This document shows positions 6,546 to 50,860 of a stretch of 56,094 nt of DNA, one piece after another. The notes below the pieces were generated by a model. That model searched no databases. It was not told where the DNA came from and worked only from the letters and a program-made list of their open reading frames with translations. The translations under genes were made by a program, and so were the position numbers. Origin of the DNA: Pseudomonadota bacterium (GTDB lineage: Bacteria; Pseudomonadota; Alphaproteobacteria; Rickettsiales; UBA3002); contig CAUJIC010000071.1 in NCBI GenBank assembly GCA_963205305.1, positions 1 to 56,094 on the forward strand, in the 5' to 3' direction. Every line of letters starts with the position of its first letter. Within the stretch, counting starts at the first letter, position 1.

Positions 6546-6563
6546 CTGTCACAAAAAATTCAT
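6546..6563 (+). promoter_or_regulatory. Pho-box-like direct repeat CTGTCAC-AAAA-AATTCAT
   Basis: 11/14 heptamer positions match CTGTCAT-N4-CTGTCAY, with an A-only spacer. Lies 96 nt upstream of ATG 6660. See findings. Confidence 0.45.
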
Positions 6564-6656
6564 AAATCTCTGCCACCACTATGCGGTGGCCTATGGTAAA
6601 CTTTCTGAGGTTTTGTTTGGATAAGCCAGCAAAACGCATGGAAAGAATTTAGTACA

Positions 6657-8111
6657 TTGATGCCCGATACAGTTGTCAGATACCGCGCGAAATCGCAGCA
6701 AGGATCGTTAGAGACGGTTGATTTTTCGACCGTTGCGGGCAAGCGCTTTGCGTTTTTCCAGCTGCGCGACCCTGCCAAAATGGAGCAACTGAAACGTGCA
6801 CTGGTTGCGTCGCCCATGTCGCAAACGCTGGTAGTCACCACCTATGTTTCGGGCAAGCCCATGCTAGTTACCGAGGGCGATGCCACGACCGAAATGCTGC
6901 TGGAAAAGTTAGCACTGCGTGGCGAGCCGCTTGAAAAAGTAGTGCCAAGCAAGACCATCGACCCATGGAAAATCCGCAGTATATTTGGGTTTGGCGGACA
7001 GACCTTGCAACTTGCCTCGACCTTCATGCGCGCTAAAACGGCATCGCAGGGTGGTAAAGGTTTTTGGAAGCATATTGATTCCAGTATTTTTGTATTTGCC
7101 GCAGCCAACCTGACCGCAAACGTCATTAATTTGGTGTATCACCAAGGCGAGCAGGTAGAAGATGTTCACCAGCAGCGTTATTTGAAGCAGCGCGTGAACC
7201 GCGAACTTGCGCCGCATTTAAAAGATGGCGAGGCGCCGCTTGATATCGACGATAACCGCCAAGCGCTGCGCCCGCAGGAAGAATCGCACGGGCCGCTCGA
7301 TAAGGCGAAGGGTTTTTTGAAACGCCACTCCGTAGAGGTGGGCGAATTGGGTTTGCGCTATTTGGGTGCGGTGGGGTTGGCATTTCCTGTTACAGGTTGG
7401 AAATCGGCACTTACCAATAAGCAAATGCCAGCGACGCACCCCGCCAAGTTGCGTGTGTATGCAGGGGTGAGCAGTATTTTTGGTAAAACAGTAGCGCTGA
7501 CCTCGGCAATACCAGACCCGTATAACCCTAAGCCACCAACGGTGCTAGATCACCTGCGCGAAAAAGGCAGCTTCCTTGCGGGCGGTCTAATTGAAATTAC
7601 CTCGTTCAGCGCGCTCGCCTATGACTCCTTCGCCCACACCAAGGGTACCAAGAACGGGCTGACGATTGGTGGCAAGCAGCACCGAGATTGGCTAGGTGGC
7701 GTCGGTGCCTCAATGTTTGTGATGGGGTATATTGCGCGGTTATGGGCAAAATTCGGTGAGCGCAATGTCAACATGAACGAGATTTACGCACATGTCAGCG
7801 ATACGTTGGCAGAAACCCCACCCGAAAAGGTGCCGCAATTACTGGCCAACACCGCCGCCAGCCTGACCGAACATTTTCAGGATAAGCCAGGGCTCACATT
7901 TGCTACGATTTACACCAATCTGGCGAATGACCTGACGCAATTTCATACGCGAAGCAAAACGCCAAATGCATTGATTTACAAAGCAAATAACGATAAAAAA
8001 CCAACCGCGTTGCCACCCGTAGCAGCAGCAGAAATGCCCGCCAATCGCGTGGTGGCCGGTACGGCAGAAACCGCACCGCTTGCCCCGCGCCACGCACTAG
8101 CAATGCATTAG
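6657..8111 (+). CDS. Hypothetical protein, ~6 hydrophobic/amphipathic segments (orphan)
   Basis: Longest ORF in the region (484 aa). TTG 6657 is immediately followed by ATG 6660, the more likely start. Hydrophobic stretches include SSIFVFAAANLTANVINLVY and WLGGVGASMFVMGYIARLW. No motif I recognise. Confidence 0.6.
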   Translation: MMPDTVVRYRAKSQQGSLETVDFSTVAGKRFAFFQLRDPAKMEQLKRALVASPMSQTLVVTTYVSGKPMLVTEGDATTEMLLEKLALRGEPLEKVVPSKTIDPWKIRSIFGFGGQTLQLASTFMRAKTASQGGKGFWKHIDSSIFVFAAANLTANVINLVYHQGEQVEDVHQQRYLKQRVNRELAPHLKDGEAPLDIDDNRQALRPQEESHGPLDKAKGFLKRHSVEVGELGLRYLGAVGLAFPVTGWKSALTNKQMPATHPAKLRVYAGVSSIFGKTVALTSAIPDPYNPKPPTVLDHLREKGSFLAGGLIEITSFSALAYDSFAHTKGTKNGLTIGGKQHRDWLGGVGASMFVMGYIARLWAKFGERNVNMNEIYAHVSDTLAETPPEKVPQLLANTAASLTEHFQDKPGLTFATIYTNLANDLTQFHTRSKTPNALIYKANNDKKPTALPPVAAAEMPANRVVAGTAETAPLAPRHALAMH

Positions 8112-8135
8112 AAACCAAAGGTTTTCTTAACTAAT

Positions 8136-8153
8136 CTGTCACAAAAGCTTCAC
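8136..8153 (+). promoter_or_regulatory. Pho-box-like direct repeat CTGTCAC-AAAA-GCTTCAC
   Basis: 11/14 heptamer positions match, with an A-only spacer. Lies 55 nt upstream of TTG 8209. The flanking ~45 nt resemble 6546-6590. Confidence 0.45.
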
Positions 8154-8208
8154 ATTTCTCACCCCCTGAATGTGGTACATTTAAGGTGAGAAAAACCATG
8201 AGGTTAGG

Positions 8209-10158
8209 TTGACGGACAAACTTCTAGAGTCAGAGCCCACCCAATTCGCGCCCGACAGTGCGGAGCAAAGCGCGTCTGTACCACAGGCAGCAAAAGGCCA
8301 GCACACGCCCGATAGTTCCTACCAAAGCTACTTGTTTGGTGGCGCCGGTTCGGACGAACACCCTGCATGGAGCGATAGCGCCAAAGGTCGTGCGGCAATT
8401 CGCCTGATTTCACGTGGGATTGTGGGTGCGGCGTTCTTCACCATCGGTGGGCGGATGGCTACGCAACACCTGAAGGGGTATAATCAGAATGCGCATTGGG
8501 GCGAGACTGGTAACGATGGCAAATGGCTGCAATACATCGCGAAGGGGATTGATTCGACACTTGGTCGCGGCATCCAAAAAACGGTTACCAAGTTTGCGGA
8601 AATTAAATATGGCGCAGGTGAGGTAGCTGATAACATTGGCCGCAATGCGGTGACGTTCCGCGATACGCACCACTATGCGGGTTCTGGGTTCGATAAGGGC
8701 CGTTCCTATGGCGCGGATATTGTGGGGTTCACTTTCGACTTTGCGGCGGCATCGGTGGGTGATGCGCTGACGCGGAACGTGATTCAGGCCCTCGACCCTA
8801 ATGTGAAGAAAAGCTGGAGGGTGAATGATGAGGGCAAGCCAGCCGTGCAGGGTGAGAAGTGGCATTTCCTACCCGGTGAATTCCTGAAATGGAGCGGCAA
8901 TACCGTAGCCCGTATTTTTACGAAGAACCAAGGGGAAGACTGGGCTGCGGCAATTCCTTATGCCTTCCAGATGAAGTTCCAACGCCAAGCGTTGAACAAA
9001 GCATTTGGCGGGCGCTGGAAAGGCCACGAAGTGCAATTCGATGAAGGTTGGAATGGTGGAGCTTTTAGAGTAGAAACAAGCAAAATTTCGCCTCAAAGTC
9101 CGCCTCGTGTTATCAGCGATATGCAGCTTGTCGGCGCGATTGACCTACATTTGCGCTTTACGGGCTATAACTGGTACACGCTGATGTATCGCGAAGGCCA
9201 TGATGCGATTGGCAATGCGTGGAACCAGTGGAAGGATAATGGCTTCAAAGTCGATTTGAAGCTACCAGAGCATTTCAACCCCATCACTGCTACGGTTGAT
9301 GGAGTTGGTCACACGGCGCGCTATGTGACGAAGAGCTTTATTAAGGCCAATATGTTCATGAACCCCGCGGTGATTCCCTTCTGGATGATGCGCGTGCCAC
9401 AGAGCAAACGGCGTGATCGGTTTATTGCGGATGGTGCGCATGTGCCTACCCCCGCCAATTTACAAGATAATTTCCAGCCATTCCATGATGCGACCTATGA
9501 TAATTGGAAACCTAATACGCGCTTTGATCGGTTCGAGAGGGGCTTCAGCCAAACGCTTAATCCGCTTGGTAAATTCTCGAATTGGTTAGGTGGCAAAGCA
9601 GCCAATGCTAGCGATAAGCTTGTTGGTAAAGGCATGTGGCCAAAGAATGAGTGGCTGAACAAAATAGTTGAGCAAGGCGATAGACGCCGCAGCTTTATGC
9701 ATAATTATGTTGATGCGTCGCTTTCCTACACGCCGTACATGTGGGCGAAAGCGGAAACCACGTTGCGAGTGGATGATCGTAAAGCCGATGGTTCGCCTGG
9801 GCAGATGGATCTGGCGATTTATAAATTCATGGATGATGTGGCACGCTTTAAGTTCCATCAGGTTTCAGGTGATCTCAAAAAAATGTGGAAGCTGGGCACC
9901 AACTTCGAGCGTACGGTGAAGGCGCGCGAAGGAGCCGAGCCCGACGCACAAGAGATTGTACAGGCACCCATCACCCCAGCGCGCCCAACAACGCTGGTGC
10001 AAGCAAGCAGCATCGAGCAGACGCAGGGGCAGCAGTTGCGTTCCGCGCCAAGCGCCAATGACAGCGATTATCATGAAGATAAGAAGTGGGCGCAAATGGT
10101 ATCGGGCAGTGACATCAATGCCGCGCGTTTCCACTCCGCGAGCCCTACACGGCATTAG
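8209..10158 (+). CDS. Hypothetical protein, Trp/aromatic-rich (orphan)
   Basis: 649-aa ORF with a TTG start preceded by GAGG at 8200-8203. One N-terminal hydrophobic segment (RGIVGAAFFTIGG) and a low-complexity C-terminal tail. No recognisable family. Confidence 0.6.
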   Translation: MTDKLLESEPTQFAPDSAEQSASVPQAAKGQHTPDSSYQSYLFGGAGSDEHPAWSDSAKGRAAIRLISRGIVGAAFFTIGGRMATQHLKGYNQNAHWGETGNDGKWLQYIAKGIDSTLGRGIQKTVTKFAEIKYGAGEVADNIGRNAVTFRDTHHYAGSGFDKGRSYGADIVGFTFDFAAASVGDALTRNVIQALDPNVKKSWRVNDEGKPAVQGEKWHFLPGEFLKWSGNTVARIFTKNQGEDWAAAIPYAFQMKFQRQALNKAFGGRWKGHEVQFDEGWNGGAFRVETSKISPQSPPRVISDMQLVGAIDLHLRFTGYNWYTLMYREGHDAIGNAWNQWKDNGFKVDLKLPEHFNPITATVDGVGHTARYVTKSFIKANMFMNPAVIPFWMMRVPQSKRRDRFIADGAHVPTPANLQDNFQPFHDATYDNWKPNTRFDRFERGFSQTLNPLGKFSNWLGGKAANASDKLVGKGMWPKNEWLNKIVEQGDRRRSFMHNYVDASLSYTPYMWAKAETTLRVDDRKADGSPGQMDLAIYKFMDDVARFKFHQVSGDLKKMWKLGTNFERTVKAREGAEPDAQEIVQAPITPARPTTLVQASSIEQTQGQQLRSAPSANDSDYHEDKKWAQMVSGSDINAARFHSASPTRH

Positions 10159-10228
10159 GAATGCTTCCTTAGTTGAATTTGCGGGGCCGACTGTGCTAGT
10201 GCTGAGGCATCACAGGGGAGTGTCGCTT

Positions 10229-10852
10229 ATGAAATACGCGGTTATCACAAGTCTACTGGTTGCGTTCGCCACGCCAGCATTTGCGCTACCAAGCTGTGCG
10301 CCATCCAACCGTGTGCCTGTCGAGAATTACCCGGGGGCGAAAGCGATTAATACCAGCAACAACCTTGTGCTGCCTGCGGGCAAAGCCATGGCTGCTGAGG
10401 GGCAAAAAATTACGATTACGGGTAAAGTGCTCGACAAAAACTGTGCGCCCGTGATGAACGCTGTGGTGGAATTGTGGCAAAAGAACCCTTATGGCCGCTG
10501 GATCTTAGCCAGCGATGCCGATTTAGCAGGGGCCGAGCCAACTTTTGCGGGCACAGGGCGCACCTATACTGATAACGAGGGCAAGTTTGTCTTTTTTACC
10601 TTGTTTCCCGCCCCTGCGGAGAAACGTGCGCCGTTTGTGAATGTTAAAATCCAAGGGCAGGGCATTTCGGATTTCACGACGGCACTGTTCTTCGCGGCTG
10701 ATAAACGTAACGACGCCGATGCCGTGTTTATGAAGCTAAGTGAAAAAACCCGCAAGGATATAAGCCTTGTGGTGGATGAAAACGAAGCAGGCGAATTGGT
10801 TGGCACGGTGGAGATTGTGCTGCCTGTAGTGACGCCGTATCGGTCGTATTAA
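10229..10852 (+). CDS. Secreted intradiol ring-cleavage dioxygenase-like protein (protocatechuate 3,4-dioxygenase beta-like fold), probably non-catalytic
   Basis: Internal ATG at 10229 gives signal peptide MKYAVITSLLVAFATPAFA. Core ITITGKVLDKNCAPVMNAVVELWQKNPYGRW...TDNEGKFVFFTLFP resembles the dioxygenase_C fold. The upstream extension of ORF 9956 overlaps the previous gene and was rejected. Confidence 0.7.
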   Translation: MKYAVITSLLVAFATPAFALPSCAPSNRVPVENYPGAKAINTSNNLVLPAGKAMAAEGQKITITGKVLDKNCAPVMNAVVELWQKNPYGRWILASDADLAGAEPTFAGTGRTYTDNEGKFVFFTLFPAPAEKRAPFVNVKIQGQGISDFTTALFFAADKRNDADAVFMKLSEKTRKDISLVVDENEAGELVGTVEIVLPVVTPYRSY

Positions 10853-10858
10853 GCGAAG

Positions 10859-12271
10859 CTATTTCGGCGCAATCATATCCTCGGGGCGTACCCATTGGTC
10901 GAACTGCTCGCTGGTGAGTAGGCCTAGCTCCATCGCGGCAGCCTTGAGGGTCGTGCCCTCGTGGTGCGCCTTCTTCGCGGCTTTGGCAGCGTTGTCGTAA
11001 CCGATATGGGGGTTCAATGCTGTCACCAGCATCAGGCTTTCATTCAGCAATTGGGTGATGCGTTTTTCGTTCGCCTCAATCCCCACCACGCAATTATCGG
11101 TGAAGCTGTTGCAGGCATCCGCAATCAAACGGATGGATTGAAGCACGTTGAAGATGATAACAGGCTTGAACACGTTCAACTCGAAATGGCCGTTGCTGCC
11201 AGCGATGGTGACGGCGGTGTGGTTGCCCATCACTTGCGCGGCGACCATGGTCATGGCCTCGGACTGGGTGGGGTTCACCTTACCCGGCATGATGGAGGAG
11301 CCAGGTTCGTTCTCAGGGAGCGCTAACTCACCAAGGCCGCAACGTGGGCCGCTGCCGAGCAGGCGGATATCGTTAGCGATTTTCATGAGGGACACGGCAA
11401 CGGTGTTGAGTGCGCCTGAGATTTCCACCATCGCATCATGCGCGGCCAATGCCTCGAACTTGTTGGGGGCGGTGACGAAGGGAAGCTTGGTGATGCTGGC
11501 CACTTCCGCTGCGAATTTAACATCGAAGCCGATTTTAGTGTTGAGGCCTGTGCCAACGGCAGTGCCGCCTTGCGCGAGTTGATACAGGCGCGGTAGGCAG
11601 GATTTAACACGCGCAATGCCATATTCCACTTGCGTGGTGTAGCCCGAAAATTCCTGACCCAAGGTTAGCGGCGTTGCATCCATCAAGTGCGTGCGGCCAA
11701 TTTTGACGATGCTCTCGAATGCTTTGGCCTTTGCCGCTAGCGCCTTGTGCAAATGCTCCATGGCTGGGATTAGGGCATGGTGCACTTGCTCCACCGCCGC
11801 GATGTGCATGGCGGTTGGGAAGGAATCGTTGCTGGATTGCCCCATGTTCACATGGTCGTTCGGGTGTACTGGCTTTTTGCTGCCCATGGTGCCGCCGAGA
11901 AGCTCAATCGCGCGGTTACTAATCACTTCGTTCGCGTTCATGTTGGTTTGCGTGCCGCTGCCTGTTTGCCAAACCACTAGGGGGAAGTGGTCATCCAGCT
12001 TGCCGTCCATCACCTCGGTGGCGGCGGTGACAATGGCTTCGCCCATTTTTTTATCAAGCCCTGCGATTTGCATGTTCACCTGTGCCGCCGCGCGCTTGAG
12101 CACGCCTAGCGCGCGGATGAGGGGCTTGGGCATCGTCTCGCCGCCGATTTTGAAGTTCATGAGGCTGCGGCTTGTCTGTGCGCCCCAGTATTTATCGGCA
12201 GGGACGGCGATTTCTCCGAAGCTATCGGTTTCCATACGCACTTGGGTATTCAATTTTTCAGCGGCGGACAT
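10859..12271 (-). CDS. fumC: Fumarate hydratase, class II
   Basis: 470 aa with the class II signature [21 protein letters not shown]-terminus ...[24 protein letters not shown]. Confidence 0.95.
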
Positions 12272-12320
12272 GTGGGCTCCTTGTAATGAATATTCTGCGA
12301 CTCAAAGCATTCTTTGTTGC

Positions 12321-14635: not shown

Positions 14636-14644
14636 GGCTGGGCG

Positions 14645-16024: not shown

Positions 16025-16030
16025 GGTGCC

Positions 16031-16576: not shown

Positions 16577-16614
16577 AATTAATCTCCTACAATGATTGCT
16601 CGCCGCAAGGCGCG

Positions 16615-17364: not shown

Positions 17365-17439
17365 GGCGGGCTCCGTTAATCGGCCATAGAACTAGCCCGA
17401 TTGGCTGGAATTACAAGGGGAATTTGGGTTGGACTTAGA

Positions 17440-17457
17440 ATGTCATGAAACTGTCAC
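17440..17457 (+). promoter_or_regulatory. Pho-box-like direct repeat ATGTCAT-GAAA-CTGTCAC (best match in window)
   Basis: 13/14 heptamer positions match CTGTCAT-N4-CTGTCAY. Lies 59 nt upstream of ATG 17517, same orientation. Confidence 0.55.
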
Positions 17458-17516
17458 ACCCATTTTGGAAGGAATTTGTTAGTAGGAGGCATTAATTTAA
17501 TAAAAAAGGAGCATTT

Positions 17517-17948
17517 ATGACGCAACAGTACAGATCACACGCAGATAGATTTCAATCGGCAGCCGCAACGCTTCCTGCAAGCGGTACAAAGGATCAAGCC
17601 TTCATCGATGTAACCAAATCTGAAAATTTGGAAAGAGCGCTGGGGCAGTTGTTTCAAGCATGGAAGGGTGCGCCAGAGGAGCAATCTGCTGTGCGATTTA
17701 GCCTAGTGGTTGGTAGCGACAGTAGGCAAGCGATTGCTATTTCGCCAACCAATGAGCATGCCATTGTCTCTGCTACGCAGGCGCAGCAGTTTTTATCGGT
17801 TGTTGCTGGTGCGGTGGGTGATTTTAGGGCCAAGTTTGATGATAGCGGTAGCTTGAAAATCACGGAACCGCTGCAAAAATGGGCGCTTGGAATCCAAAAA
17901 ATGCGCAGTGGGTTGGCTCAGGATAACGACATCGCGGCAGCGCGCTAG
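17517..17948 (+). CDS. Hypothetical protein (orphan, 143 aa)
   Basis: ATG preceded by AAAGGAG at 17506-17512. No recognisable motif. Lies in an AT-richer insertion between pyrH and tsf. Confidence 0.5.
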   Translation: MTQQYRSHADRFQSAAATLPASGTKDQAFIDVTKSENLERALGQLFQAWKGAPEEQSAVRFSLVVGSDSRQAIAISPTNEHAIVSATQAQQFLSVVAGAVGDFRAKFDDSGSLKITEPLQKWALGIQKMRSGLAQDNDIAAAR

Positions 17949-17990: not shown

Positions 17991-18614
17991 ATGGTTTCCG
18001 CACTTGAATCGTATCGCCGACGCGCCACTCAATTGGCTAAGGCTTTGTCGTCTGGCGCTATTGAAATGGTGTCGCTCGATCACGCGGAACTTAAAAAATT
18101 TAGAGTCTTTATCCATAGTGACGAAAATGCATGGCAGCGATTCCTAGGTTGGCAAGACCGAACGCTTCATGCAAAAACAACGCGCGATCATTTAGACCAA
18201 TGGTACTTTACTCAAGGCAAGCATACATATTCGTTTCTAGCCAAAATCGTAGGAGAGGATCGCTATGTTGGTTGGTTGACAATCAATAGTGCTGAAACAA
18301 GACCTGAGCTTCAAATTGGATATTTTATTCTCCCCTCAGAGCGCAACAAGGGATTGGCTACGCAGATAGTAAATCAGACGATTCTTGCTTGTGAAAACCA
18401 TCCGCACATGCTGCCTTGGAAGAATATTATCGCGGGCGTAGAAGAAGATAATGCGGCATCCATGTCTGTTTTAAAGAAAGCAGGATTTATCGAAAGCAAG
18501 GAAGATAATGTCATTGTGGGAAATCAAGATTTGCAGCTAGTGATGTTTAGGCGCTCCCTTGATAAGGCCGCTGATTTACACAAGAAAGTAGTTAGGGATG
18601 GAGTGGCGCGCTGA
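17991..18614 (+). CDS. GNAT family N-acetyltransferase (RimJ/RimL-like)
   Basis: ...ELQIGYFILPSERNKGLATQIVNQTI...EEDNAASMSVLKKAGF... is a typical acetyl-CoA-binding core of the RimJ/L-type family. It carries a ~40-aa N-terminal extension. Confidence 0.75.
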   Translation: MVSALESYRRRATQLAKALSSGAIEMVSLDHAELKKFRVFIHSDENAWQRFLGWQDRTLHAKTTRDHLDQWYFTQGKHTYSFLAKIVGEDRYVGWLTINSAETRPELQIGYFILPSERNKGLATQIVNQTILACENHPHMLPWKNIIAGVEEDNAASMSVLKKAGFIESKEDNVIVGNQDLQLVMFRRSLDKAADLHKKVVRDGVAR

Positions 18615-18978: not shown

Positions 18979-18993
18979 GCGCCCACTATAGCG

Positions 18994-19026: not shown

Positions 19027-19051
19027 TTTTCGATTTAGAATGAGCGTAAGT

Positions 19052-20239
19052 TTATGCTACGCCCGATACTTTTGCCACTTCGGCAGCAAAGTCATCGGCG
19101 GCTTTCTCGATGCCTTCACCCAGCGCGAAGCGGGTGAACGCTTTGAGAGCAACAGGCGCGCCCACATCGGTGCTAGCGTTGCTGAGCACTTCGCTCACTT
19201 TCGATTTGCCATCGATCACGAATACTTGCTCGAACAGTACGGATTCGCGCAGGGTTTCGTTGTAGTAGAGATCAGCCAGCTTGGCTTTGATTGCCGACTC
19301 ATCGCCATACGAACGCATTTTCTTGAGCAGGAATGCGGTTTCGGCGAAGAATACGTTGAGAAGTTTTTGGGTCTTCTCGGCATCTTGCTTGTCTTTGCGG
19401 TCTTCGCTCGCCGATTGACGCACAACATCGTCGAGTAACGCATCGACGTTCACCGCGCGCTGGACGAGTTCTTTCAGCTTAGGCTCGAACTGCTTCTCGG
19501 AGAAGTTTTGCTCTTTCACGAACTTGTCTTTGTGCTTGGCCATGGCGGATTCGAACGCGCAGAATTCGGCAAACAGTTTTTCTGCCTTGTTCTTGCTCAC
19601 ATCTTGCTCGCGCGCTTTGGCATCGGCTGGGATGTTGCTCAGTTCGATGTAGCTTGGGTTGCTGGCTGCAATGTGCATGGCCAGTTGTTTGCCCAACATT
19701 TCAAGTTTTGCGGCATCGCCTGTCGATTCGAGCGCAACGAGCACGCCGATTTTACCCATGCCAGGCTTCACAGCGCCGTGGATATAGGTGGAGACCACGC
19801 CGTTCGCCACGTTGAGAGTAGCCACGCGGCGCAGGTTCATGTTCTCGCCAATGGTGGCCACGGCATCGGTGATGGATTCGGCCACGGTTTTGTTGGTGGC
19901 GCCCATTTTTTGTGCCTTGAGGGCTTCGATGTCGGTGCCCGAGCTGAGTGCTTCGTTCGCGATTTCATGTGCGAGGGCTTGGAATTGGTCGTTACGTGCA
20001 ACGAAATCGGTCTCGGAGTTGAGCTCGATCACGGCAGCGCTGGTACCGTTGCCAGCCACAGCGATGAGGCCTTCGGCAGCCACGCGGCCCGATTTTTTAG
20101 CGGCTTGCGACAAGCCTTTGTTACGCAGCCAGTCGATGGCGGCTTCCATGTTGCCTTTGCTCTCGTCGAGAGCGCGTTTGCAATCCATCATGCCAGCGCC
20201 CGAGCGCTCGCGCAGTTCTTTTACTAATTGTGCGGACAT
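19052..20239 (-). CDS. tsf: Elongation factor Ts (unusually long, 395 aa)
   Basis: N-terminal UBA-like LVKELRERSGAGMMDCKRAL, ...IELNSETDFVARND..., C-terminal ...FTRFALGEGIEKAADDFAAEVA. Contains an extra ~85-aa segment (see findings). Confidence 0.9.
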   Translation of the reverse strand: MSAQLVKELRERSGAGMMDCKRALDESKGNMEAAIDWLRNKGLSQAAKKSGRVAAEGLIAVAGNGTSAAVIELNSETDFVARNDQFQALAHEIANEALSSGTDIEALKAQKMGATNKTVAESITDAVATIGENMNLRRVATLNVANGVVSTYIHGAVKPGMGKIGVLVALESTGDAAKLEMLGKQLAMHIAASNPSYIELSNIPADAKAREQDVSKNKAEKLFAEFCAFESAMAKHKDKFVKEQNFSEKQFEPKLKELVQRAVNVDALLDDVVRQSASEDRKDKQDAEKTQKLLNVFFAETAFLLKKMRSYGDESAIKAKLADLYYNETLRESVLFEQVFVIDGKSKVSEVLSNASTDVGAPVALKAFTRFALGEGIEKAADDFAAEVAKVSGVA

Positions 20240-20266
20240 TAGAGTTCTCCTGATATTTTTTGAAAG

Positions 20267-20294
20267 GTCACCCCAGCGTTGAAGCTGGGGTGAC
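20267..20294 (-). other. Intercistronic hairpin between rpsB and tsf
   Basis: Perfect 11-bp stem GTCACCCCAGC / GCTGGGGTGAC with a 6-nt loop. No U-run follows it in the direction of transcription, so it is a possible attenuator or processing or stability element rather than a full terminator. Confidence 0.45.
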
Positions 20295-20303
20295 TTGCAT
20301 TAA

Positions 20304-21308
20304 TTACGCGCTTTTCTTCGCGGATTTTTTAGCTTTTGGAGCTTCTTCAGCAGATGCTTCAGCGGCTACGGCAGCTTCGAAAGGCACTTCGGTGGCTTTC
20401 TTTTTAGCGGCTTTTTTAGCTTCTTCAGCGAAGGCTTCCTTTTTGGTGGAAGATGCTGGAGCAGCTTTTGGTGCGGATTTAGCGCCTTTGCCACCTTTGC
20501 TGTCTTTACGCGAATCGCGGCTCAGCTTCTCTTGCTGTTGGCGCTCGGTCAGGCCTTCGCCTGCTTCAGCTTCCACGGCATCAATCTGCGCGCCGAAATC
20601 ATCGTTCTTGCCACCGAGGTTCTCTTTGAGACCCGAAAGAGCTGCATCCGAGATTAGTTTGCAGTAGAGTTTGATGGCGCGGGTTGCATCGTCGTTACCC
20701 GGGATTGGGAAATCAATGCCATCGGCCGTGCAGTTGGTATCGATGATGGCAACGATTGGAATCCCCAGCTTTTTGGCTTCTTTAACGGCCAATTCTTCGC
20801 GGTTGGTATCGATGATGAACAGCAAATCAGGTTTGCCGCCCATTTCACGAATCCCGCCGAGCGAGCGCTCGAGCTTATCGCGGTTGCGCGACATGGTGAG
20901 GATTTCTTTTTTGGTCAGACCCGACTCAGGGTTCGCAAGCTGCTCTTCGTATTTACGCAGTTGGCGAATGGAGTTTTGAATCGTGCTCCAGTTGGTGAGC
21001 ATGCCACCCAACCAGCGTTGATCGACATAATACTGGCCGCAACGCTTTGCGGATTCAGCAATCGTCTCTGACGCTTGGCGTTTGGTGCCTACGAACAGGA
21101 TACGACCGTTTTTAGCGACCGTGGCGCGAACAGCGCTCAGCGCGCGGTGCAGCATGGGCACGGTTTGTTGCAGGTCGATGATGTGGATGTCGTTGCGGGT
21201 GCCGTAGATGAACGGCGCCATGCGTGGGTTCCAACGTTTGGTTTTGTGGCCGAAGTGAACGCCTGCTTCAATAAGCTCGCGCATCGAAAAGTCAGGAAGT
21301 GCTGACAT
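20304..21308 (-). CDS. rpsB: 30S ribosomal protein S2 with ~100-aa K/A/E-rich C-terminal tail
   Basis: [22 protein letters not shown]..., ...LFVGTKRQA..., ...IVAIIDTNC... The conserved core ends near residue 230 of 334. Confidence 0.95.
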
Positions 21309-21559
21309 AGTGTAGTCTCCTTTAGTCCGGTTAATCCTCCGTGAACGATGGCCATCTCTGGCACCGGCGGGTGGTTCGGAACTCCCGAATTACCCTGACA
21401 TTCACGTGTGTGTTCCCTCAAACCCAATGTTTGGGGGTGCGGCTTGTTAATCCAAATAGCATAGGGTTGCAAGCCTTTTTTGGCGTGAAAGCGTAATCTG
21501 GCACCCGCTTGTAATTGCTCGCGCGGCGTAATATGTAAGCCATTCACATCGGAGGGGTT

Positions 21560-22342: not shown

Positions 22343-22345
22343 CCC

Positions 22346-23410: not shown

Positions 23411-23411
23411 C

Positions 23412-24389
23412 ATGATGGAAATTTTAAGCCTGACATTACTTGGTAAGCCAGTGCTGCTTTGGGCGTCGTTCCTTGCGGTGGTGCTTGTTCTTCTGGCGTT
23501 TGATCTTGGCGTGCTTCACCGCACGGATAAAGAAATATCGGTGAAGCAAAGCCTACGCTTGAGTGCGTTTTATATCAGCATAGGGCTGCTGTTTGGGTTG
23601 TTCATTTATCATGAGCTGGGCGGGCAAGCGGCGCAGGAATATTATACCGGGTTCATTATCGAAAAGACATTGTCGCTCGATAATATCTTCGTGATTTCAT
23701 TGGTGTTCAGCTACTTCTCGATTCCACGTAATTACCAGTATCGTGTGCTTTTCTGGGGAATTCTTGGCGTTATTATTCTACGCGCTATACTTATCGGTGT
23801 GGGCGCAGAGATTGTTCACCAGTTTGAGTGGGCGCTTTATGTTTTTGCGGCATTCCTTGTTTATACTGGCTTCAAAATGCTCAAAAACGACGATGAAGAG
23901 CATGATATTAGTGCCAATCCAGTGGTGAAGTTTGTTCGCAAATATATGCGGGTGACGAACGAACTGCATGGAAACAAATTCTTCGTGCGCTTACCAGATG
24001 CTAACACAGGTAAGAGACAGAATTTTGCCACGCCGCTATTCATGGCGCTGGTGGTGGTGGAATTTGTGGATGTGATTTTTGCTCTCGATTCGGTGCCCGC
24101 TATTTTCGCAGTGACAACGGATGAGTATATTGTCTACACCAGCAACATTTTCGCGATTCTAGGCCTGCGTGCGCTGTATTTCGCGCTGGCAGCGCTGCTG
24201 CATCGGTTCGAATATCTCAAATATTCGCTTTCTGCAGTGCTGATCTTCATTGGTGGCAAGGTGTTTTACCCACTCATTTCGGGCGGAGATAAAGTGCCAT
24301 CCAGCATTTCGCTCACGGTCACGATTTCCATTCTGGCGATGGGGATTGTGTACTCGCTGCACAAAACCAAGCAGGGCAAGGCAGAGTAG
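23412..24389 (+). CDS. TerC family integral membrane protein
   Basis: 325 aa, multi-TM. ...YYTGFIIEKTLSLDNIFVISLVF... and ...VVVEFVDVIFALDSVPAIFAVT... are the paired TerC motifs. Starts 1 nt after the patatin stop. Confidence 0.85.
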   Translation: MMEILSLTLLGKPVLLWASFLAVVLVLLAFDLGVLHRTDKEISVKQSLRLSAFYISIGLLFGLFIYHELGGQAAQEYYTGFIIEKTLSLDNIFVISLVFSYFSIPRNYQYRVLFWGILGVIILRAILIGVGAEIVHQFEWALYVFAAFLVYTGFKMLKNDDEEHDISANPVVKFVRKYMRVTNELHGNKFFVRLPDANTGKRQNFATPLFMALVVVEFVDVIFALDSVPAIFAVTTDEYIVYTSNIFAILGLRALYFALAALLHRFEYLKYSLSAVLIFIGGKVFYPLISGGDKVPSSISLTVTISILAMGIVYSLHKTKQGKAE

Positions 24390-24393
24390 GGCA

Positions 24394-25119
24394 CTACATC
24401 AGCCCGAAGCTTTTGAAGCTGTAATGCCCAGTGTCGCTGATGATGACATGGTCGTGCACGCTGACATTCACCGTTTTGCAGGCATCAATAATTTGGGTGG
24501 TGATGTCGATGTCGGCCTTGCTGGGTGAGGGGTCGCCGCTGGGGTGGTTATGCAACAAGATGATAGATGCAGCGGCTAGTTCCAGCGCGCGTTTCACAAT
24601 CTCGCGCGGGTAGACGGGCGTGTGGTTGATGGTCCCGCGCTGCATCACTTCATCGGCAATCAGCACGTGGCGGTTATTGAGGAATAATACACGGAATTCC
24701 TCGATTTTTTTGTTGCCCATGGCCAGCTTGCAGTAATCCATCAGCGCCGACCACGATTGAATGACTGGCTGGTCACTGATTTCTGATTTAATGAGGCGCT
24801 GGGTAGAAATACGGATGGTTTTGAGGGCGGCCACCACGGCATCCCCCACATCATCGACTGCGCGCAGGGCGGTGTCCTCGGCGTGGATGACCTTTGCAAA
24901 GTTGCCAAAATGCTTGAGAAGTGCCTTGGCGAGGGGTTTGACATCGCCGCGCGGGCGCGCAGAAAACAAAATAAGCTCAAGTAGCTCGTAATCGGGCAGG
25001 GCATCGCCACTGGCACCCAAAAAGCGCTCGCGCAGGCGGGCACGGTGGCCAAGATAGTGGGGAGATGTTTCGTCGCTCATGGGTTCTGGGTAGCGCTTAT
25101 CGCTGCGACTTGCAATCAT
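24394..25119 (-). CDS. radC: RadC-family (JAB/MPN domain) protein
   Basis: ...HYLGHRARLRERF..., C-terminal JAMM-like ...IILLHNHPSGDPSPSKADI... The start may instead be the internal ATG at 25080. Confidence 0.85.
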   Translation of the reverse strand: MIASRSDKRYPEPMSDETSPHYLGHRARLRERFLGASGDALPDYELLELILFSARPRGDVKPLAKALLKHFGNFAKVIHAEDTALRAVDDVGDAVVAALKTIRISTQRLIKSEISDQPVIQSWSALMDYCKLAMGNKKIEEFRVLFLNNRHVLIADEVMQRGTINHTPVYPREIVKRALELAAASIILLHNHPSGDPSPSKADIDITTQIIDACKTVNVSVHDHVIISDTGHYSFKSFGLM

Positions 25120-25194
25120 GCGAAAAACTTATATGGTGCCGCAGTTCAAATGGTTAATAATTGAATCTTAATAACAACAAAACGGATTAGGAAC

Positions 25195-25758
25195 ATGACT
25201 GAAGCATACAATGAAATGAAATCAATCTGCGTATTCTGTGGTGCGCAAAATGCGGTACCCGAAGTGCATAAGGAAATGGCGCGTACGCTTGGGATTGATA
25301 TGGCCAAGGCGGGCAAACAGCTGGTCTATGGCGGCGGCGATTGCGGCCTGATGGGGGCGGTGGCCAACGGTGTGCTTGAAGGCAAAGGCAAAGCAATCGG
25401 CGTATTCCCGCGTTCGCTGGGGCGTATCGAGGTGGAGCACAAAGGCCTCACCCAAATGATCATGGTCGATTCGATGCATGAACGTAAGCAAATTATGTAT
25501 GATAATTCGGATGTGTTTGTGGTGCTACCTGGCGGTTTTGGTACGCTGGATGAGATGTTCGAGGTGATTACGTGGCGCCAGATCAAGATTCACGAGAAAT
25601 TCGTGATTATCTATAACCATAACGGCTATTGGGACCACCTGATTACGCTGATGGATAATATCATTAATGTGGGCTTTGCGCGTGAAAGCAACCGTGAGTT
25701 CTATACCGTCGTGAACACGAAGGAAGAACTTTACACCATGTTAGGCTTAAAAGCGTAA
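25195..25758 (+). CDS. LOG family (TIGR00730) nucleotide 5'-monophosphate nucleosidase
   Basis: ...VYGGGDCGLMGAVA... and PGGFGTLDEMFE motifs. 187 aa. Confidence 0.85.
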   Translation: MTEAYNEMKSICVFCGAQNAVPEVHKEMARTLGIDMAKAGKQLVYGGGDCGLMGAVANGVLEGKGKAIGVFPRSLGRIEVEHKGLTQMIMVDSMHERKQIMYDNSDVFVVLPGGFGTLDEMFEVITWRQIKIHEKFVIIYNHNGYWDHLITLMDNIINVGFARESNREFYTVVNTKEELYTMLGLKA

Positions 25759-25870
25759 TCATTGACGACATGTTATGTGGATTTTTCAAAAATATTCACA
25801 TAAAAAACACAAGCAAATGAGCCAATTTTTTAGCATTTTAAAAAAAAATGAAAAAAGTTGTTTTTTATTG

Positions 25871-25899
25871 TTGACGGGGGGAAGGCTTATCCCTATACC
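25871..25899 (+). promoter_or_regulatory. Sigma70-type rRNA promoter with upstream A/T-rich UP-like element
   Basis: TTGACG (25871-25876), 17 nt, TATACC (25894-25899). Preceded by AAAAAAAATGAAAAAAGTTGTTTTTTATTG. Lies ~340 nt upstream of the mature 16S 5' end. Confidence 0.6.
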
Positions 25900-25999
25900 C
25901 CACATCCCGACGCGGTGACGAGATTCACCAAAAGCGGGGCCAGAAATGGCTGAATGGGTTCCCTGCCTGACTATGCGGAATCGAACCATTCTGTTGAAT

Positions 26000-26034
26000 G
26001 ATAGTGTGAAGAGCGTTTAAGCGCAGGTGGGTGT
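26000..26034 (+). other. 16S precursor processing stem, 5' arm
   Basis: GATAGTGTGAAGAGCGTTTAAGCGCAGGTGGGTGT is complementary, with 3 mismatches or wobbles, to 27790-27824 downstream of the 16S. This is an RNase III-type stem. Confidence 0.75.
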
Positions 26035-26235
26035 GATGGAAAAAAATCCACAGACCATACCTGCGAACACGTAATAAAAAGTAATTTTTAGAACGCAAGT
26101 AAGTATCCAATGAAACAGTAAGTCCTTAACGGCGAGTTTCATTTGGTATGGTTTGTGTGAGTCTATTCAATTTCTGATTAGTGCTTTAAGTACTAATCGA
26201 ACATCATAGGATTTAACGTCCTATGATATGAATCA

Positions 26236-27716
<1,481 letters not shown>

Positions 27717-27789
27717 AAGGATCATTTCAGATCAATCATCGAGAATTATCTCGGTAATTTCTGAATATCATACCTTACATATTCCATTT

Positions 27790-27824
27790 ACACTCATCTG
27801 CGCTTAAACGCTCCTCACACTATC
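27790..27824 (+). other. 16S precursor processing stem, 3' arm
   Basis: ACACTCATCTGCGCTTAAACGCTCCTCACACTATC pairs with 26000-26034. Confidence 0.75.
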
Positions 27825-27933
27825 CGTCAAAACTGATGTGATACGTTAATTGATGTGTTACTTTAAGATTTCAAAGCAACCATCTGACATAAAAGTAAAA
27901 AGAATAACCTAAAAAGGGTTAGCAACCGAAAAA

Positions 27934-27962
27934 GCCCCGTCAGTAATGACGGGGCTTTTTTG
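27934..27962 (+). terminator. Intrinsic terminator ending the 16S transcription unit
   Basis: GCCCCGTCA-GTAA-TGACGGGGC perfect 9-bp stem followed by TTTTTTGTT. Confidence 0.85.
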
Positions 27963-27977
27963 TTGGTTTGATAGCAA

Positions 27978-27995
27978 TCTTCACACGAATGTCAC
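27978..27995 (+). promoter_or_regulatory. Pho-box-like direct repeat TCTTCAC-ACGA-ATGTCAC
   Basis: 10/14 heptamer positions match, the weakest of the five. Lies 52 nt upstream of ATG 28048. Confidence 0.35.
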
Positions 27996-28047
27996 ACAGC
28001 CATTTTTCTTAATCTGCTACCCTTTACTCATTCTAGGAAAGGGATTT

Positions 28048-28521
28048 ATGGCGCAGTTGTTCAGTGTGGATTCGGAAGATTTCTCGAAGGAGAGGCGCAC
28101 CTTTTCCATCGGATTAGAGAATGACGCATTGGTGGTAAGCCATGATCTGGTTATGCCAGCGGATACTTCGACACCCGCAACGACAATGTTGGTTGCGGTG
28201 AAATTCACAAAGGGGCGCATTGAGGTGAATTGCCAAGCGCATGATTCTAATGAAAAATTTGGTGCTGTTTATACGCAATCGCGCAATGGCAGGTATACGT
28301 GCGAAGAAACTGGAAATTCTGACTATCATGATGGAATGAAATCTATGGGCGAAGCCCTTTTTATGGGTGCAATTTACCCTGATATGATTCGCGCCGCACT
28401 CGGGGCTGTAAAAAAATTGAATCCAGAGCAAGCTCAGCAGCTAACGACATCACAACGACAGTTGGCCCGAGAGCCTGACCGTCTATTGCGCCATTTAAAG
28501 CCTTCAATAAATGAAATATAA
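28048..28521 (+). CDS. Hypothetical protein (orphan, 157 aa)
   Basis: ATG 28048 preceded by AGGAAAGGGA. The longer ORF from 27946 would start inside the 16S terminator and was rejected. Shares a motif pattern with the next ORF. Confidence 0.55.
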   Translation: MAQLFSVDSEDFSKERRTFSIGLENDALVVSHDLVMPADTSTPATTMLVAVKFTKGRIEVNCQAHDSNEKFGAVYTQSRNGRYTCEETGNSDYHDGMKSMGEALFMGAIYPDMIRAALGAVKKLNPEQAQQLTTSQRQLAREPDRLLRHLKPSINEI

Positions 28522-28575
28522 ATCAACGACGACTTGCTGAGTTAGGCTATTATTTTGAAACCAAAGGAGCGGCGC

Positions 28576-29040
28576 GTGCCAACGGAAAAAGTGAGAATCG
28601 GCAGGACGGATTATCTTGTGAAACCTGAGGAGGGTTCCCTCACCGTTCAGTCCGAGCACCCCATGTATGCAGTCCATAGTACTGTGATTGTGCACTTCAC
28701 CGCCACGGGTATTGAGGTGATTGAGGATCGCACCAATGCGCCAGAGCCATGGAAAACCATCGTCACCCCGCTGCGCACGGGCGGGTTTAAAGTCGATACC
28801 ACGGGTGCTGTCGAGGAGCTTGGCATGGTTACGGCGGAGTTTCATTCCATGGATAGTGTGGTCGAATATGCCGATGCGGCGGAGCTAAAGAAGGGCGATG
28901 CGCGCGTGTTCAGCGCAATTCGCAATGCCGTGCAAGCCGCCGCGCAGTTGGAGGGAACCAACACACTCTCCATGGCACAGCGCAAAATGATCGAAGCCTA
29001 CAAAACCCACTTCGAAGAGACGAACTTGCGGATTGGTTAG
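28576..29040 (+). CDS. Hypothetical protein (orphan, ~154 aa), possible distant paralogue of 28048-28521
   Basis: GTG 28576 is preceded by AAGGAG at 28565-28570. The ORF track start TTG 28555 is an alternative. Confidence 0.5.
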   Translation: MPTEKVRIGRTDYLVKPEEGSLTVQSEHPMYAVHSTVIVHFTATGIEVIEDRTNAPEPWKTIVTPLRTGGFKVDTTGAVEELGMVTAEFHSMDSVVEYADAAELKKGDARVFSAIRNAVQAAAQLEGTNTLSMAQRKMIEAYKTHFEETNLRIG

Positions 29041-29085
29041 GGCTGAGGCTTAGACCGCGGATGAGTCGAGGGGCTTTTTTGTTGG

Positions 29086-29103
29086 CTGTCATTAAACCGT
29101 AAC
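29086..29103 (+). promoter_or_regulatory. Pho-box-like direct repeat CTGTCAT-TAAA-CCGTAAC
   Basis: 12/14 heptamer positions match, with an A/T-only spacer. Lies 48 nt upstream of ATG 29152. Confidence 0.5.
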
Positions 29104-50859: not shown

Positions 50860-50860
50860 T

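What the first reader, a model, noticed from the sequence alone, without database searches (positions are those of the whole stretch)
6546..29103. Pho-box-like 7-4-7 direct repeats precede five orphan transcription units and none of the housekeeping genes
Seen, all on the + strand and in the orientation of the downstream + strand ORFs:
- 6546 CTGTCAC-AAAA-AATTCAT
- 8136 CTGTCAC-AAAA-GCTTCAC
- 17440 ATGTCAT-GAAA-CTGTCAC
- 27978 TCTTCAC-ACGA-ATGTCAC
- 29086 CTGTCAT-TAAA-CCGTAAC

Against the classical Pho box CTGTCAT-A(A/T)A(T/A)-CTGTCA(C/T), the two heptamers match 11, 11, 13, 10 and 12 of 14 positions. Three spacers are entirely A/T, one has three of four, and the weakest box (27978) has two of four. 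The box ends lie 96, 55, 59, 52 and 48 nt before the predicted start codons.

Established knowledge: PhoB (OmpR family) binds 11-bp-phased direct repeats that replace the -35 element. The observed geometry would leave a 20-30 nt 5' UTR.

Inference: the orphan genes at 6.6-10.2 kb, 17.5 kb and 28.0-30.4 kb (possibly to 32.4 kb) belong to one phosphate-starvation regulon, or to that of a related OmpR-family regulator. They would then form a co-regulated set of lineage-specific proteins of unknown function.

Caveat: the bare heptamer TGTCACA also occurs by chance inside CDSs here, for example reverse-strand copies in nuoL at 51025 and nuoM at 53763. Significance therefore rests on the tandem phasing, intergenic position, orientation and restriction to orphan genes.
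Basis: partly seen in the sequence, partly recalled or inferred. Interest (0 to 1): 0.8.

Follow-up and report, generated by a model that had tools for sequence, protein, structure and literature searches.

The report
Conserved Pho-box-type operators before clade-specific genes
The five 7-4-7 repeats are real, evolutionarily conserved binding sites for a PhoB-type response regulator that drives a set of function-unknown genes in an uncultured group of alphaproteobacteria, but whether the signal is phosphate starvation could not be tested.

Summary
All five sites exist as written.

They are more than chance:
- Against the classical Pho-box consensus, about 4 kb of intergenic DNA holds 5 sites at or above 11/14, where 0.8 are expected. 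Coding DNA is at chance.

The same box sits before orthologous genes in 31 of 31 promoters of the 649-aa protein family, with orthologues down to about 28% identity. It also precedes orthologues of the 484-aa and 416-aa genes.

The boxes lie 10, 21-23 or 32-33 nt upstream of a -10 hexamer that often has the extended TGn form. No -35 element is present, so the boxes keep one face of the DNA helix.

Site 5 and the cell-wall hydrolase genes of relatives show the canonical PhoB geometry of 10 nt. The other four window sites sit one or two helical turns further upstream.

"Orphan" is only partly right. The 484-aa, 649-aa and dioxygenase-like genes are clade-wide, and only the 143-aa ORF is a true orphan.

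The regulator's identity is inferred: PhoB itself about 0.55, another OmpR-family member about 0.3. No pst or phoB locus of this clade could be reached. This is a known kind of regulation with unusual regulon content.

The parts
6546..6563 (+). Site 1: CTGTCAC-AAAA-AATTCAT, the operator of the 484-aa membrane-protein gene.
   Evidence: 23.0 bits. Orthologous boxes followed by AAATCTC occur in L081 648, L083 1022, L119 8293 and, with only the second half-site kept, L002.
6594..6602 (+). Predicted extended -10 element TGG-TAAACT, 33 nt after the site 1 box.
   Evidence: Read. The same 32-33 nt distance and TATGSTAWWMT are seen in L002 and L119.
6657..8111 (+). CDS of 484 aa with about five hydrophobic helices and no Pfam or NCBIfam hit. 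It is conserved in the clade.
   Evidence: Identity to relatives ranges from 73% in L081 to 32% in L092.
8125..8131 (+). Weak third half-site TCTTAAC, in 11-nt register upstream of site 2.
   Evidence: A TTAAC or GTAAG sequence recurs at this position in many orthologous promoters.
8136..8153 (+). Site 2: CTGTCAC-AAAA-GCTTCAC, the operator of the 649-aa gene.
   Evidence: 26.1 bits. The box is present in 31 of 31 orthologous promoters. G3, T4, A6, A9, A10, T14, T15 and A17 are invariant.
8173..8181 (+). Extended -10 element TGG-TACATT, 22 nt after the site 2 box.
   Evidence: A TGnTAnnnT element lies 21-23 nt after the box in most orthologues.
8183..8208 (+). Conserved 5' leader AAGGTGAGAAAAACCATGAGGTT, containing the GAGG Shine-Dalgarno sequence, ahead of the TTG start.
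8209..10158 (+). CDS of 649 aa. It is a clade-wide family of unknown function whose model is a bundle of long helices.
   Evidence: 155 hits, all annotated hypothetical. (pTM 0.74). (no PDB match).
10229..10852 (+). CDS of 207 aa: a secreted protein with an intradiol-dioxygenase-like domain, probably in one operon with the 649-aa gene.
   Evidence: It lies downstream of the 649-aa gene, adjacent or within a few kb, in 15 loci.
17440..17457 (+). Site 3: ATGTCAT-GAAA-CTGTCAC, a 13/14 match to the Pho-box consensus.
   Evidence: 21.0 bits. Boxes at the same pyrH-tsf spacer occur in L002 12269, L003 10290 and L005 11682.
17477..17485 (+). Candidate extended -10 element TGT-TAGTAG, 22 nt after the site 3 box. 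The last base is imperfect, so the assignment is uncertain.
   Evidence: Read. The scan preferred TAATTT at +35.
17517..17948 (+). CDS of 143 aa, a true orphan.
   Evidence: no homologue among 5.8 billion proteins..
17991..18614 (+). GNAT acetyltransferase CDS, 42 nt downstream of the 143-aa ORF and probably co-transcribed with it.
   Evidence: No terminator lies between the two genes.
27927..27962 (+). Strong intrinsic terminator after the lone 16S rRNA gene. Its tail, TTTTTTGTTGG, runs up to site 4.
27978..27995 (+). Site 4: TCTTCAC-ACGA-ATGTCAC. It is the weakest site and has the TTCAY-then-TGTCAY arrangement.
   Evidence: 11.3 bits, fifth best in the window. The same arrangement at 21-22 nt from a -10 element occurs in L005 1585, L005 11682, L002 12269, L003 10290 and L120 865.
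28015..28023 (+). Extended -10 element TGC-TACCCT, 22 nt after the site 4 box.
   Evidence: Read.
28048..29040 (+). Two small CDSs of 157 aa and 161 aa, which are weak paralogues of each other.
   Evidence: E 0.02. The 157-aa protein has one homologue cluster. The 161-aa protein is 76% identical to a box-preceded gene in L120.
29086..29103 (+). Site 5: CTGTCAT-TAAA-CCGTAAC.
   Evidence: 18.1 bits. Orthologous boxes lie before homologues of the 416-aa gene in L001 186, L120 1440 and L121 1498.
29111..29119 (+). Extended -10 element TGC-TATTCT, 10 nt after the site 5 box. This is the canonical PhoB geometry.
   Evidence: TGCTAnnnT lies at +10 in L001, L120 and L121.
29152..30402 (+). CDS of 416 aa, Ala/Gln-rich and low in complexity, with only two or three known homologues.
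30516..32351 (+). CDS of 611 aa. Membership of the regulon is unproven, because the gene has no box of its own.
   Evidence: No box lies before the gene at the equivalent position in L120.

Best explanation
The five sites are operators for a phosphorylated PhoB-type (OmpR/PhoB winged-helix) response regulator, most likely the PhoB orthologue of this organism.

Proposed mechanism:
- A dimer binds head-to-tail to two 7-nt half-sites, TGTCAY or TTCAY. The half-sites are spaced 11 nt apart, with an A-rich 4-nt spacer.
- The target promoters have no -35 hexamer. Most have an extended -10 element (TGnTAnnnT).
- At site 5 the box ends 10 nt before the -10 element and stands in for the -35 element, which is the classical PhoB arrangement.
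- At sites 2, 3 and 4 the box ends 22 nt before the -10 element, and at site 1 it ends 33 nt before. These are one and two helical turns further upstream, on the same face of the DNA.
- From there the regulator would recruit RNA polymerase and so switch on the transcription units at 6.6-10.85 kb, 17.5-18.6 kb, 28.0-29.0 kb and 29.15-30.4 kb together.

Shown: the sites, their non-random occurrence, their deep conservation and their phasing relative to the -10 element.

Inferred: that a response regulator binds them, that it activates rather than represses, that it is PhoB, and that the signal is phosphate limitation.
For: (1) An a-priori consensus is enriched only in intergenic DNA: 5 sites against 0.79 expected, with 0 of 500 shuffles reaching 5.

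(2) A PWM built from other genomes picks exactly these five sites as the window's top five.

(3) Phylogenetic footprint. The box is present in 31 of 31 promoters of the 649-aa family, with eight invariant positions, while the flanking positions vary. It is also kept before orthologues of the 484-aa gene and the 416-aa gene.

(4) The box-to--10 distances of 78 sites in the clade cluster at 10 (11 sites), 21-23 (37 sites) and 32-33 (8 sites). Control positions give a flat distribution. TGn precedes 44 of the 78 -10 hexamers.

(5) No sigma-70 -35/-10 pair is found at any of the five sites.

(6) Relatives carry 12/14 to 14/14 matches to CTGTCAT-N4-CTGTCAT exactly 10 nt before a -10 hexamer. An example is L090 6765, CTGTCAT-GAAG-CTGTCAT.

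(7) The PHO box of rhizobia, which are also Alphaproteobacteria, is described as two CTGTCAT repeats with a 4-nt A/T-rich spacer (PMC3131613; review PMC4415409). A PhoB orthologue would therefore be expected to bind these sequences.

(8) 1.27 Mb of DNA from other alphaproteobacteria has no PWM hit at or above 18 bits and one at or above 15 bits. The 0.59 Mb of clade DNA has 87 hits at or above 15 bits.
Against: - None of about 25 distinct downstream gene families is a recognisable phosphate-acquisition gene. They are function-unknown membrane or coiled-coil proteins, DUF2610, and M23 or CHAP cell-wall hydrolases.
- Most sites lie 21-23 nt from the -10 element rather than 10 nt. As far as I know, that is not the usual E. 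coli PhoB arrangement.
- Many second half-sites are TTCAY rather than TGTCAY.
- No phoB, phoR, pstS or phoU gene was seen. Only about 650 kb around two loci could be sampled, so this absence says little.
- Control DNA in (8) is mostly high-GC, which lowers its background for an A/T-rich motif.
Confidence: 0.55

Rival explanations
1. The sites bind an OmpR-family response regulator that is not PhoB. It could be a CenR-like envelope regulator or a clade-specific paralogue. It would control a programme of envelope remodelling or prey/host interaction in response to a signal other than phosphate.
For: - The targets are cell-wall hydrolases without signal peptides (M23 in L002, L082, L086, L090 and L092; CHAP in L119), membrane proteins, Gly-zipper proteins and fast-evolving small proteins. 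None is a phosphate gene.
- Most boxes sit just upstream of where a -35 element would be. That is where 28 of 31 CenR sites lie in Rhodobacter (PMC9275681).
- CenR half-sites include TCAC, and some CenR sites resemble ours, for example TGGCAAAAATGTCAC before a cell-wall hydrolase.
Against: - The CenR motif read in the direction of transcription is TGA-N8-TGA. Ours read in that direction is TCA-N8-TCA, and it matches TGA-N8-TGA only on the other strand.
- The best sites are perfect Pho boxes with perfect PhoB spacing to the -10 element.
- A paralogue with PhoB's specificity would cross-talk with PhoB if PhoB is present. This last point is inference.
Confidence: 0.3
2. The repeats are promoter elements read directly by RNA polymerase. 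Either TTCACA acts as a displaced -35 element, or the repeat is the -35 element of an alternative sigma factor. On this reading they are not a regulator's operator.
For: - The second half-site plus the next base reads TTCACA, which matches TTGACA at 5 of 6 positions.
- The box always has a fixed position relative to the -10 element.
Against: - The spacer to the -10 element would be 20-21 nt, or 9 nt in the 10-nt class. Neither fits a sigma-70-type promoter, which uses 16-18 nt.
- Three discrete distances one helical turn apart, and a two-part 11-nt direct repeat, fit a DNA-bound dimer and not a sigma factor.
- No known sigma consensus matches. This last point rests on my own knowledge.
Confidence: 0.07
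3. The five sites are chance matches to a short, degenerate consensus in A/T-rich spacers.
For: - Matches of 10/14 are common: 49 in the window, 43 of them in coding DNA.
- Site 27978, at 10/14 and 11.3 bits, is not significant on its own.
Against: - Shuffle tests.
- Conservation in 31 of 31 orthologous promoters, and before orthologues of the 484-aa and 416-aa genes.
- Fixed phasing to the -10 element.
Confidence: 0.03

Closest known systems
[quoted passage not shown]
   Same: - Two 7-nt direct repeats close to CTGTCAT with an A/T-rich 4-nt spacer, giving an 11-nt period.
- Promoters without a -35 element.
- At site 5 and at the hydrolase genes of relatives, the box ends 10 nt before the -10 element.
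- Tandem arrays of three or four half-sites occur, for example in L108, as at E. coli pstS.
   Different: - Most boxes lie one or two helical turns further upstream.
- The second half-site is often TTCAY.
- No known phosphate-scavenging gene was found among the targets.
- The link to phosphate is untested.
CenK/CenR cell-envelope regulon of Alphaproteobacteria (Rhodobacter sphaeroides, PMC9275681)
   Same: - The regulator belongs to the OmpR family.
- The operator is a direct repeat with an 11-nt register.
- The sites lie just upstream of the -35 position and point in the direction of transcription.
- The targets include peptidoglycan hydrolases and envelope proteins.
   Different: The CenR consensus is TGA-N8-TGA on the transcribed orientation. 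Here it is TCA-N8-TCA with a longer, well-defined TGTCAY core and an invariant AAAA spacer.
PhoP (Salmonella) promoter architectures; PmrA control of Dot/Icm effector genes in Legionella and Coxiella. Both are cited from my own knowledge, not checked here.
   Same: - One OmpR-family regulator uses direct-repeat boxes placed at several discrete, helically phased distances from the -10 element.
- In the PmrA case the regulator coordinates many lineage-specific genes of unknown function.
   Different: - The half-site sequences differ: TGTTTA-type for PhoP and TTAAT-type for PmrA.
- No secretion system or effector role has been shown for the genes here.

Membership tests
PHO box / PhoB regulon | Two 7-nt direct repeats resembling CTGTCAT, separated by a 4-nt A/T-rich spacer. 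| tested here: met
   The window sites score 11, 11, 13, 10 and 12 of 14 against CTGTCAY-N4-CTGTCAY. Relatives reach 14/14. The spacer is AAAA in 29 of 31 promoters of the 649-aa family.
PHO box / PhoB regulon | The box ends about 10 nt upstream of the -10 hexamer and takes the place of the -35 element. | tested here: inconclusive
   Met at site 5 and at 11 sites in the clade. Sites 2, 3 and 4 lie at 22 nt and site 1 at 33 nt. A -35 element is absent at all five sites.
PHO box / PhoB regulon | The pstS, pstSCAB-phoU and phoB promoters of the same genome carry the box. | not testable with these tools
   No pstS, phoU or OmpR-family gene lies in the window or in about 0.6 Mb of clade loci.
PHO box / PhoB regulon | The target genes serve phosphate acquisition or phosphate sparing. 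| tested here: not met
   The targets have no Pfam or NCBIfam phosphate function. They are unknown proteins, DUF2610, and M23 or CHAP hydrolases. Sampling was limited to two neighbourhoods. One weak box (11/14, GC-rich spacer) lies before ppk in L118.
PHO box / PhoB regulon | Induction under phosphate limitation that depends on phoB. | not testable with these tools
   This needs an experiment or metatranscriptome data.
CenR regulon | A TGA-N8-TGA direct repeat pointing in the direction of transcription, just upstream of the -35 element. | tested here: not met
   Read in the direction of transcription, the motif is TCA-N8-TCA. TGA-N8-TGA appears only on the opposite strand. The position relative to the -35 element fits for the 21-23 nt class.

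The most novel reading that the evidence does not exclude
An uncultured alphaproteobacterial lineage with genomes of about 2.3 Mb, labelled 'Rickettsiales bacterium' or 'Alphaproteobacteria bacterium' in MAG records, has turned a PhoB-type regulator and its Pho box into the master switch of a lineage-specific programme.

The programme would comprise:
- a 650-aa protein of apparently new fold;
- a partner membrane protein;
- cell-wall hydrolases without signal peptides, made from leaderless mRNAs;
- a turnover-prone set of small orphan proteins, each in its own terminator-box-promoter module.

On this reading it is an effector or attack regulon for interaction with prey or host cells, comparable in logic to PmrA and the Dot/Icm effectors.
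Probability: 0.25. Interest if true: 0.75.

Novelty: new member of a known kind. Interest (0 to 1): 0.52.

Why it matters
The box gives a sequence handle on a whole set of function-unknown genes in a lineage that has never been cultured.

- Any gene preceded by YTGTCAY-AAAA-NNTTCAY or YTGTCAY-NAAA-YYGTMAY at 10, 22 or 33 nt from a -10 element can be assigned to one regulon. The regulon can then be followed across MAGs and metatranscriptomes.
- If the regulator is PhoB, phosphate limitation would be the cue for expressing cell-wall hydrolases and a deeply conserved 650-aa protein. That would be an unexpected extension of the Pho regulon.
- If the regulator is not PhoB, this would be a second regulator with PhoB-like specificity.

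Either outcome is directly testable with one recombinant protein and a handful of promoters.

Tried and rejected
- Searched the window and about 0.6 Mb of clade loci for an OmpR-family regulator and for PstS, PhoU and PstB. The queries were E. coli sequences written from memory, run with tblastn. Only generic ABC ATPases were found.
- An exact look-up of the 143-aa protein found nothing on record.
- The structure model of the 649-aa protein (pTM 0.74) has no Foldseek match in the PDB at E<0.1 and no profile hit, so no function could be assigned.
- Pfam and NCBIfam scans of all the 'orphans' gave nothing beyond the dioxygenase-like domain.
- The sigma-54-like or Pho-like match at 21498 was rejected, because its TGGCAC is not conserved in L001.
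- A mobile repeat or cassette origin of the sites was rejected. Apart from the box, the -10 element and a terminator tail, the flanks of the five sites are unrelated.
- A mini-ORF (MRLG) overlapping the TTG start of the 649-aa gene was judged to be just the conserved Shine-Dalgarno region, because the reading frame is not kept in L082, L086 or L090.
- The Micavibrio genome paper (PMC3189940) and a Caulobacter phosphate paper (PMC11208175) held nothing on such a motif.
- Yuan et al. 2006 (PMC1464414) is not in the held paper library.


Full report
**The observation**

Against the strict classical box CTGTCAT-N4-CTGTCA(C/T) they match 10, 10, 13, 9 and 12 of 14 positions.

Taken one at a time, 10/14 or 11/14 is not remarkable. 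The window holds 49 sites at 10/14 and 12 at 11/14. The distribution is what matters:

- In the 3,997 nt that lie outside genes there are 5 sites at or above 11/14. Shuffles give 0.79, and 0 of 500 shuffles reach 5.
- The same DNA holds 2 sites at or above 12/14, against 0.06 expected.
- The 52 kb of coding DNA holds 9 sites at or above 11/14, which is what chance predicts.
- The hexamer TGTCAC is about three times denser in spacers than in genes.

**The organism**

- The window carries a lone 16S rRNA gene with no 23S gene after it.
- It also carries an rpsB-tsf / pyrH-frr-uppS-cdsA-dxr-rseP-fumC block, dnaE, and a 14-subunit nuo operon.
- Its EF-Ts has an unusual length of 395 aa. The closest matches in the genome collection, at 88-58% identity, are seven uncultured MAGs. 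They are labelled 'Alphaproteobacteria bacterium', 'Rickettsiales bacterium' or 'uncultured Azospirillum sp.' (L001-L007).
- The window is a complete 56,094-bp contig from a metagenome assembly.

**Conservation of the sites**

The 484-aa, 649-aa and downstream dioxygenase-like genes are present in these relatives. The 649-aa protein defines a family of more than 150 clusters, all annotated as hypothetical.

I fetched 38 further loci with an alignment of this family, giving 31 promoters in all.

- All 31 promoters, with proteins down to about 28% identity, carry YTGTCAY-AAAA-SNTTCAY.
- Positions G3, T4, A6, A9, A10, T14, T15 and A17 are invariant, while the flanking positions vary freely.
- In most promoters a TGnTAnnnT element follows 21-23 nt later.

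The other four sites fare as follows:

| Site | Evidence of conservation |
|---|---|
| 1 (6546) | Kept, with the following AAATCTC and a -10 element 32-33 nt away, in L081, L083 and L119. In L002 the second half-site and the -10 element are kept. |
| 5 (29086) | Kept before homologues of the 416-aa gene in L001, L120 and L121, as YTGTCAT-WAAA-CYGTAAC plus 10 nt plus TGCTAnnnT. |
| 3 (17440) | Precedes a true orphan. The same pyrH-tsf spacer in L002, L003 and L005 holds a box pointing the same way, before a different gene in L003 and L005 (no clear downstream ORF in L002). |
| 4 (27978) | Weakest site. It belongs to a recurrent sub-type, TCTTCAY-NNAA-YTGTCAY plus 21-22 nt plus a -10 element, seen at eight or more other promoters. 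One of these lies in the syntenic small-gene cluster of L120. |

A weight matrix trained only on sites from other genomes scores the five window sites at 26.1, 23.0, 21.0, 18.1 and 11.3 bits. These are the five best scores on both strands of the window. The sixth best, 10.7 bits, lies inside a gene, and shuffles give 0.04 sites at or above 18 bits.

As a control I scanned 1.27 Mb of tsf loci from other alphaproteobacteria. They hold one hit at or above 15 bits and none at or above 18 bits. The 0.59 Mb of clade DNA holds 87 hits at or above 15 bits. The control genomes are mostly GC-rich, which weakens this comparison somewhat.

**Anatomy of the promoters**

None of the five sites has a sigma-70 -35/-10 pair.

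Across 78 clade sites, the best -10 hexamer lies at one of three distances after the box:

- 10 nt: 11 sites;
- 21-23 nt: 37 sites;
- 32-33 nt: 8 sites.

Control positions give a flat distribution. In 44 of the 78 cases the hexamer is preceded by TGn. In the window the gaps are 33, 22, 22, 22 and 10 nt for sites 1 to 5.

Three half-site arrangements occur:

- TGTCAY then YGTCAY or CGTAAC, mostly at 10 nt;
- TGTCAY then TTCAY, at 21-22 nt, as in the 649-aa gene promoter;
- TTCAY then TGTCAY, at 21-22 nt.

Some promoters have three or four phased half-sites, for example L108.

In relatives, the 10-nt class precedes cell-wall hydrolase genes that lack a signal peptide. These are M23 peptidases in L002, L082, L086, L090 and L092, and a CHAP-domain protein at the same genomic position in L119. 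Their ATG lies about 6 nt after the -10 element, which implies leaderless mRNAs.

**Mechanism**

An 11-nt direct repeat with an A-rich spacer, promoters without a -35 element, and discrete helically phased positions are the signature of an OmpR/PhoB-family response regulator that binds head-to-tail and recruits RNA polymerase. This inference rests on established knowledge of PhoB, OmpR and PhoP.

Arguments that the regulator is PhoB itself:

- The sequence is that of the PHO box, and PHO boxes of rhizobia are described in the same terms (PMC3131613; PMC4415409).
- Several relatives carry 12/14 to 14/14 matches at exactly the PhoB distance from the -10 element.
- If the clade has a PhoB with the usual specificity, these sites would be bound by it.

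Arguments against, or at least unresolved:

- I could not reach any pst or pho locus of the clade.
- None of the roughly 25 target families has a phosphate-related annotation.
- The dominant 21-23 nt placement is unusual for PhoB.

The nearest alternative is a CenR-like envelope regulator.

- For: its Rhodobacter sites are direct repeats in 11-nt register placed just upstream of the -35 element, and its targets include peptidoglycan enzymes (PMC9275681).
- Against: its motif is TGA-N8-TGA in the direction of transcription, whereas ours is TCA-N8-TCA with a longer core.

My estimates are PhoB about 0.55, another OmpR-family regulator about 0.3, direct recognition by RNA polymerase about 0.07, and chance about 0.03.

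**What the genes are**

- The 649-aa protein models confidently (pTM 0.74) as a bundle of long helices. It has no structural or profile match in the PDB.
- The 484-aa protein has about five hydrophobic helices.
- The 207-aa protein is secreted and has an intradiol-dioxygenase-like domain.
- The 416-aa and 611-aa proteins are Ala/Gln/Glu-rich and low in complexity.
- The 157-aa and 161-aa proteins are weak paralogues of each other.

Conservation falls steeply along the list. It is clade-wide for the first unit, two or three homologues for the 416-aa protein, one homologue cluster for the 157-aa protein, and none for the 143-aa protein. 'Orphan' is therefore accurate only for part of the set. 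Conversely, several other orphan ORFs of the window have no box.

**Verdict**

The regulatory mechanism is a known kind. What is unusual is the content of the regulon and how deeply the operator is conserved before a family of unknown function.

Noticed in passing
window 26236-27714 and 27927-27962: A complete 16S rRNA gene stands alone. No 23S rRNA, 5S rRNA or spacer tRNA follows it. It ends in a strong intrinsic terminator, and protein-coding genes come next. This unlinked rRNA arrangement is known from Rickettsiales and some other lineages.
   Followed up: partly
window 38680-56006: The nuoA-N operon is interrupted by ORFs unrelated to nuo:
- a GNAT acetyltransferase at 40273-40806;
- a 244-aa membrane ORF at 40827-41561;
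- ORFs at 42751-43140, about 43.8-44.5 kb (with a signal peptide) and 45820-46149.

None of them is preceded by the box.
   Followed up: no
window 19052-20239 (-) and 20304-21308 (-): EF-Ts is 395 aa, about 100 aa longer than usual, and ribosomal protein S2 is 334 aa. The long EF-Ts is shared by L001-L007 and marks the clade.
   Followed up: partly
window 17365-17516; L002 about 12269, L003 about 10290, L005 about 11682: The pyrH-tsf spacer holds a different box-driven gene in different genomes. Here it is a 143-aa orphan plus a GNAT gene. In L003 and L005 it is a Gly-zipper membrane protein of 331-333 aa. L001 has nothing detectable there. The spacer looks like a hotspot for regulon gene turnover.
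   Followed up: partly
L002 1006-1966, L082 11708-12668, L086 16023-17085, L090 6765-7836, L092 16213-17293, L119 16075-17326: Cell-wall hydrolases (M23, or CHAP in L119) sit between an HhH-GPD glycosylase gene and purB. They lack signal peptides. Each has a high-scoring box 10 nt before a -10 element and an ATG about 6 nt after it, which suggests leaderless mRNAs. No such gene lies in the window.
   Followed up: partly
window 27955-27977 and 29066-29085; L001 about 204-225; L120 about 250-275 and 840-865: The boxes of the small-gene cluster are directly abutted by a terminator tail that reads GGGGCTTTTTTGTTGG in the window and a close variant (...GGCTTTTTTGTTGG) in the relatives. Each small gene therefore sits in its own terminator-box-promoter module.
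   Followed up: no
window 8183-8211: The leader of the 649-aa gene, AAGGTGAGAAAAACCATGAGGTT, and its TTG start are conserved in many orthologues. In this window an MRLG mini-ORF overlaps the start, but its frame is not conserved elsewhere.
   Followed up: partly
window 21498-21515: CTGGCACCCGCTTGTAAT looks like both a sigma-54 promoter and a Pho box. Its TGGCAC is not conserved in L001. The conserved part is CTTGTAATTGCT-N7-CGTAATATGTAA, which is probably an ordinary promoter of the SDR gene.
   Followed up: yes
window 21313-21410 (-): The Rfam rpsB leader (RF01815) lies upstream of rpsB.
   Followed up: no
L118 16827: A weak box (11/14, with the GC-rich spacer CCCG) lies 141 nt before a polyphosphate kinase (ppk1) gene. 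It is the only phosphate-related gene seen near any box, and the match is too weak to count.
   Followed up: no
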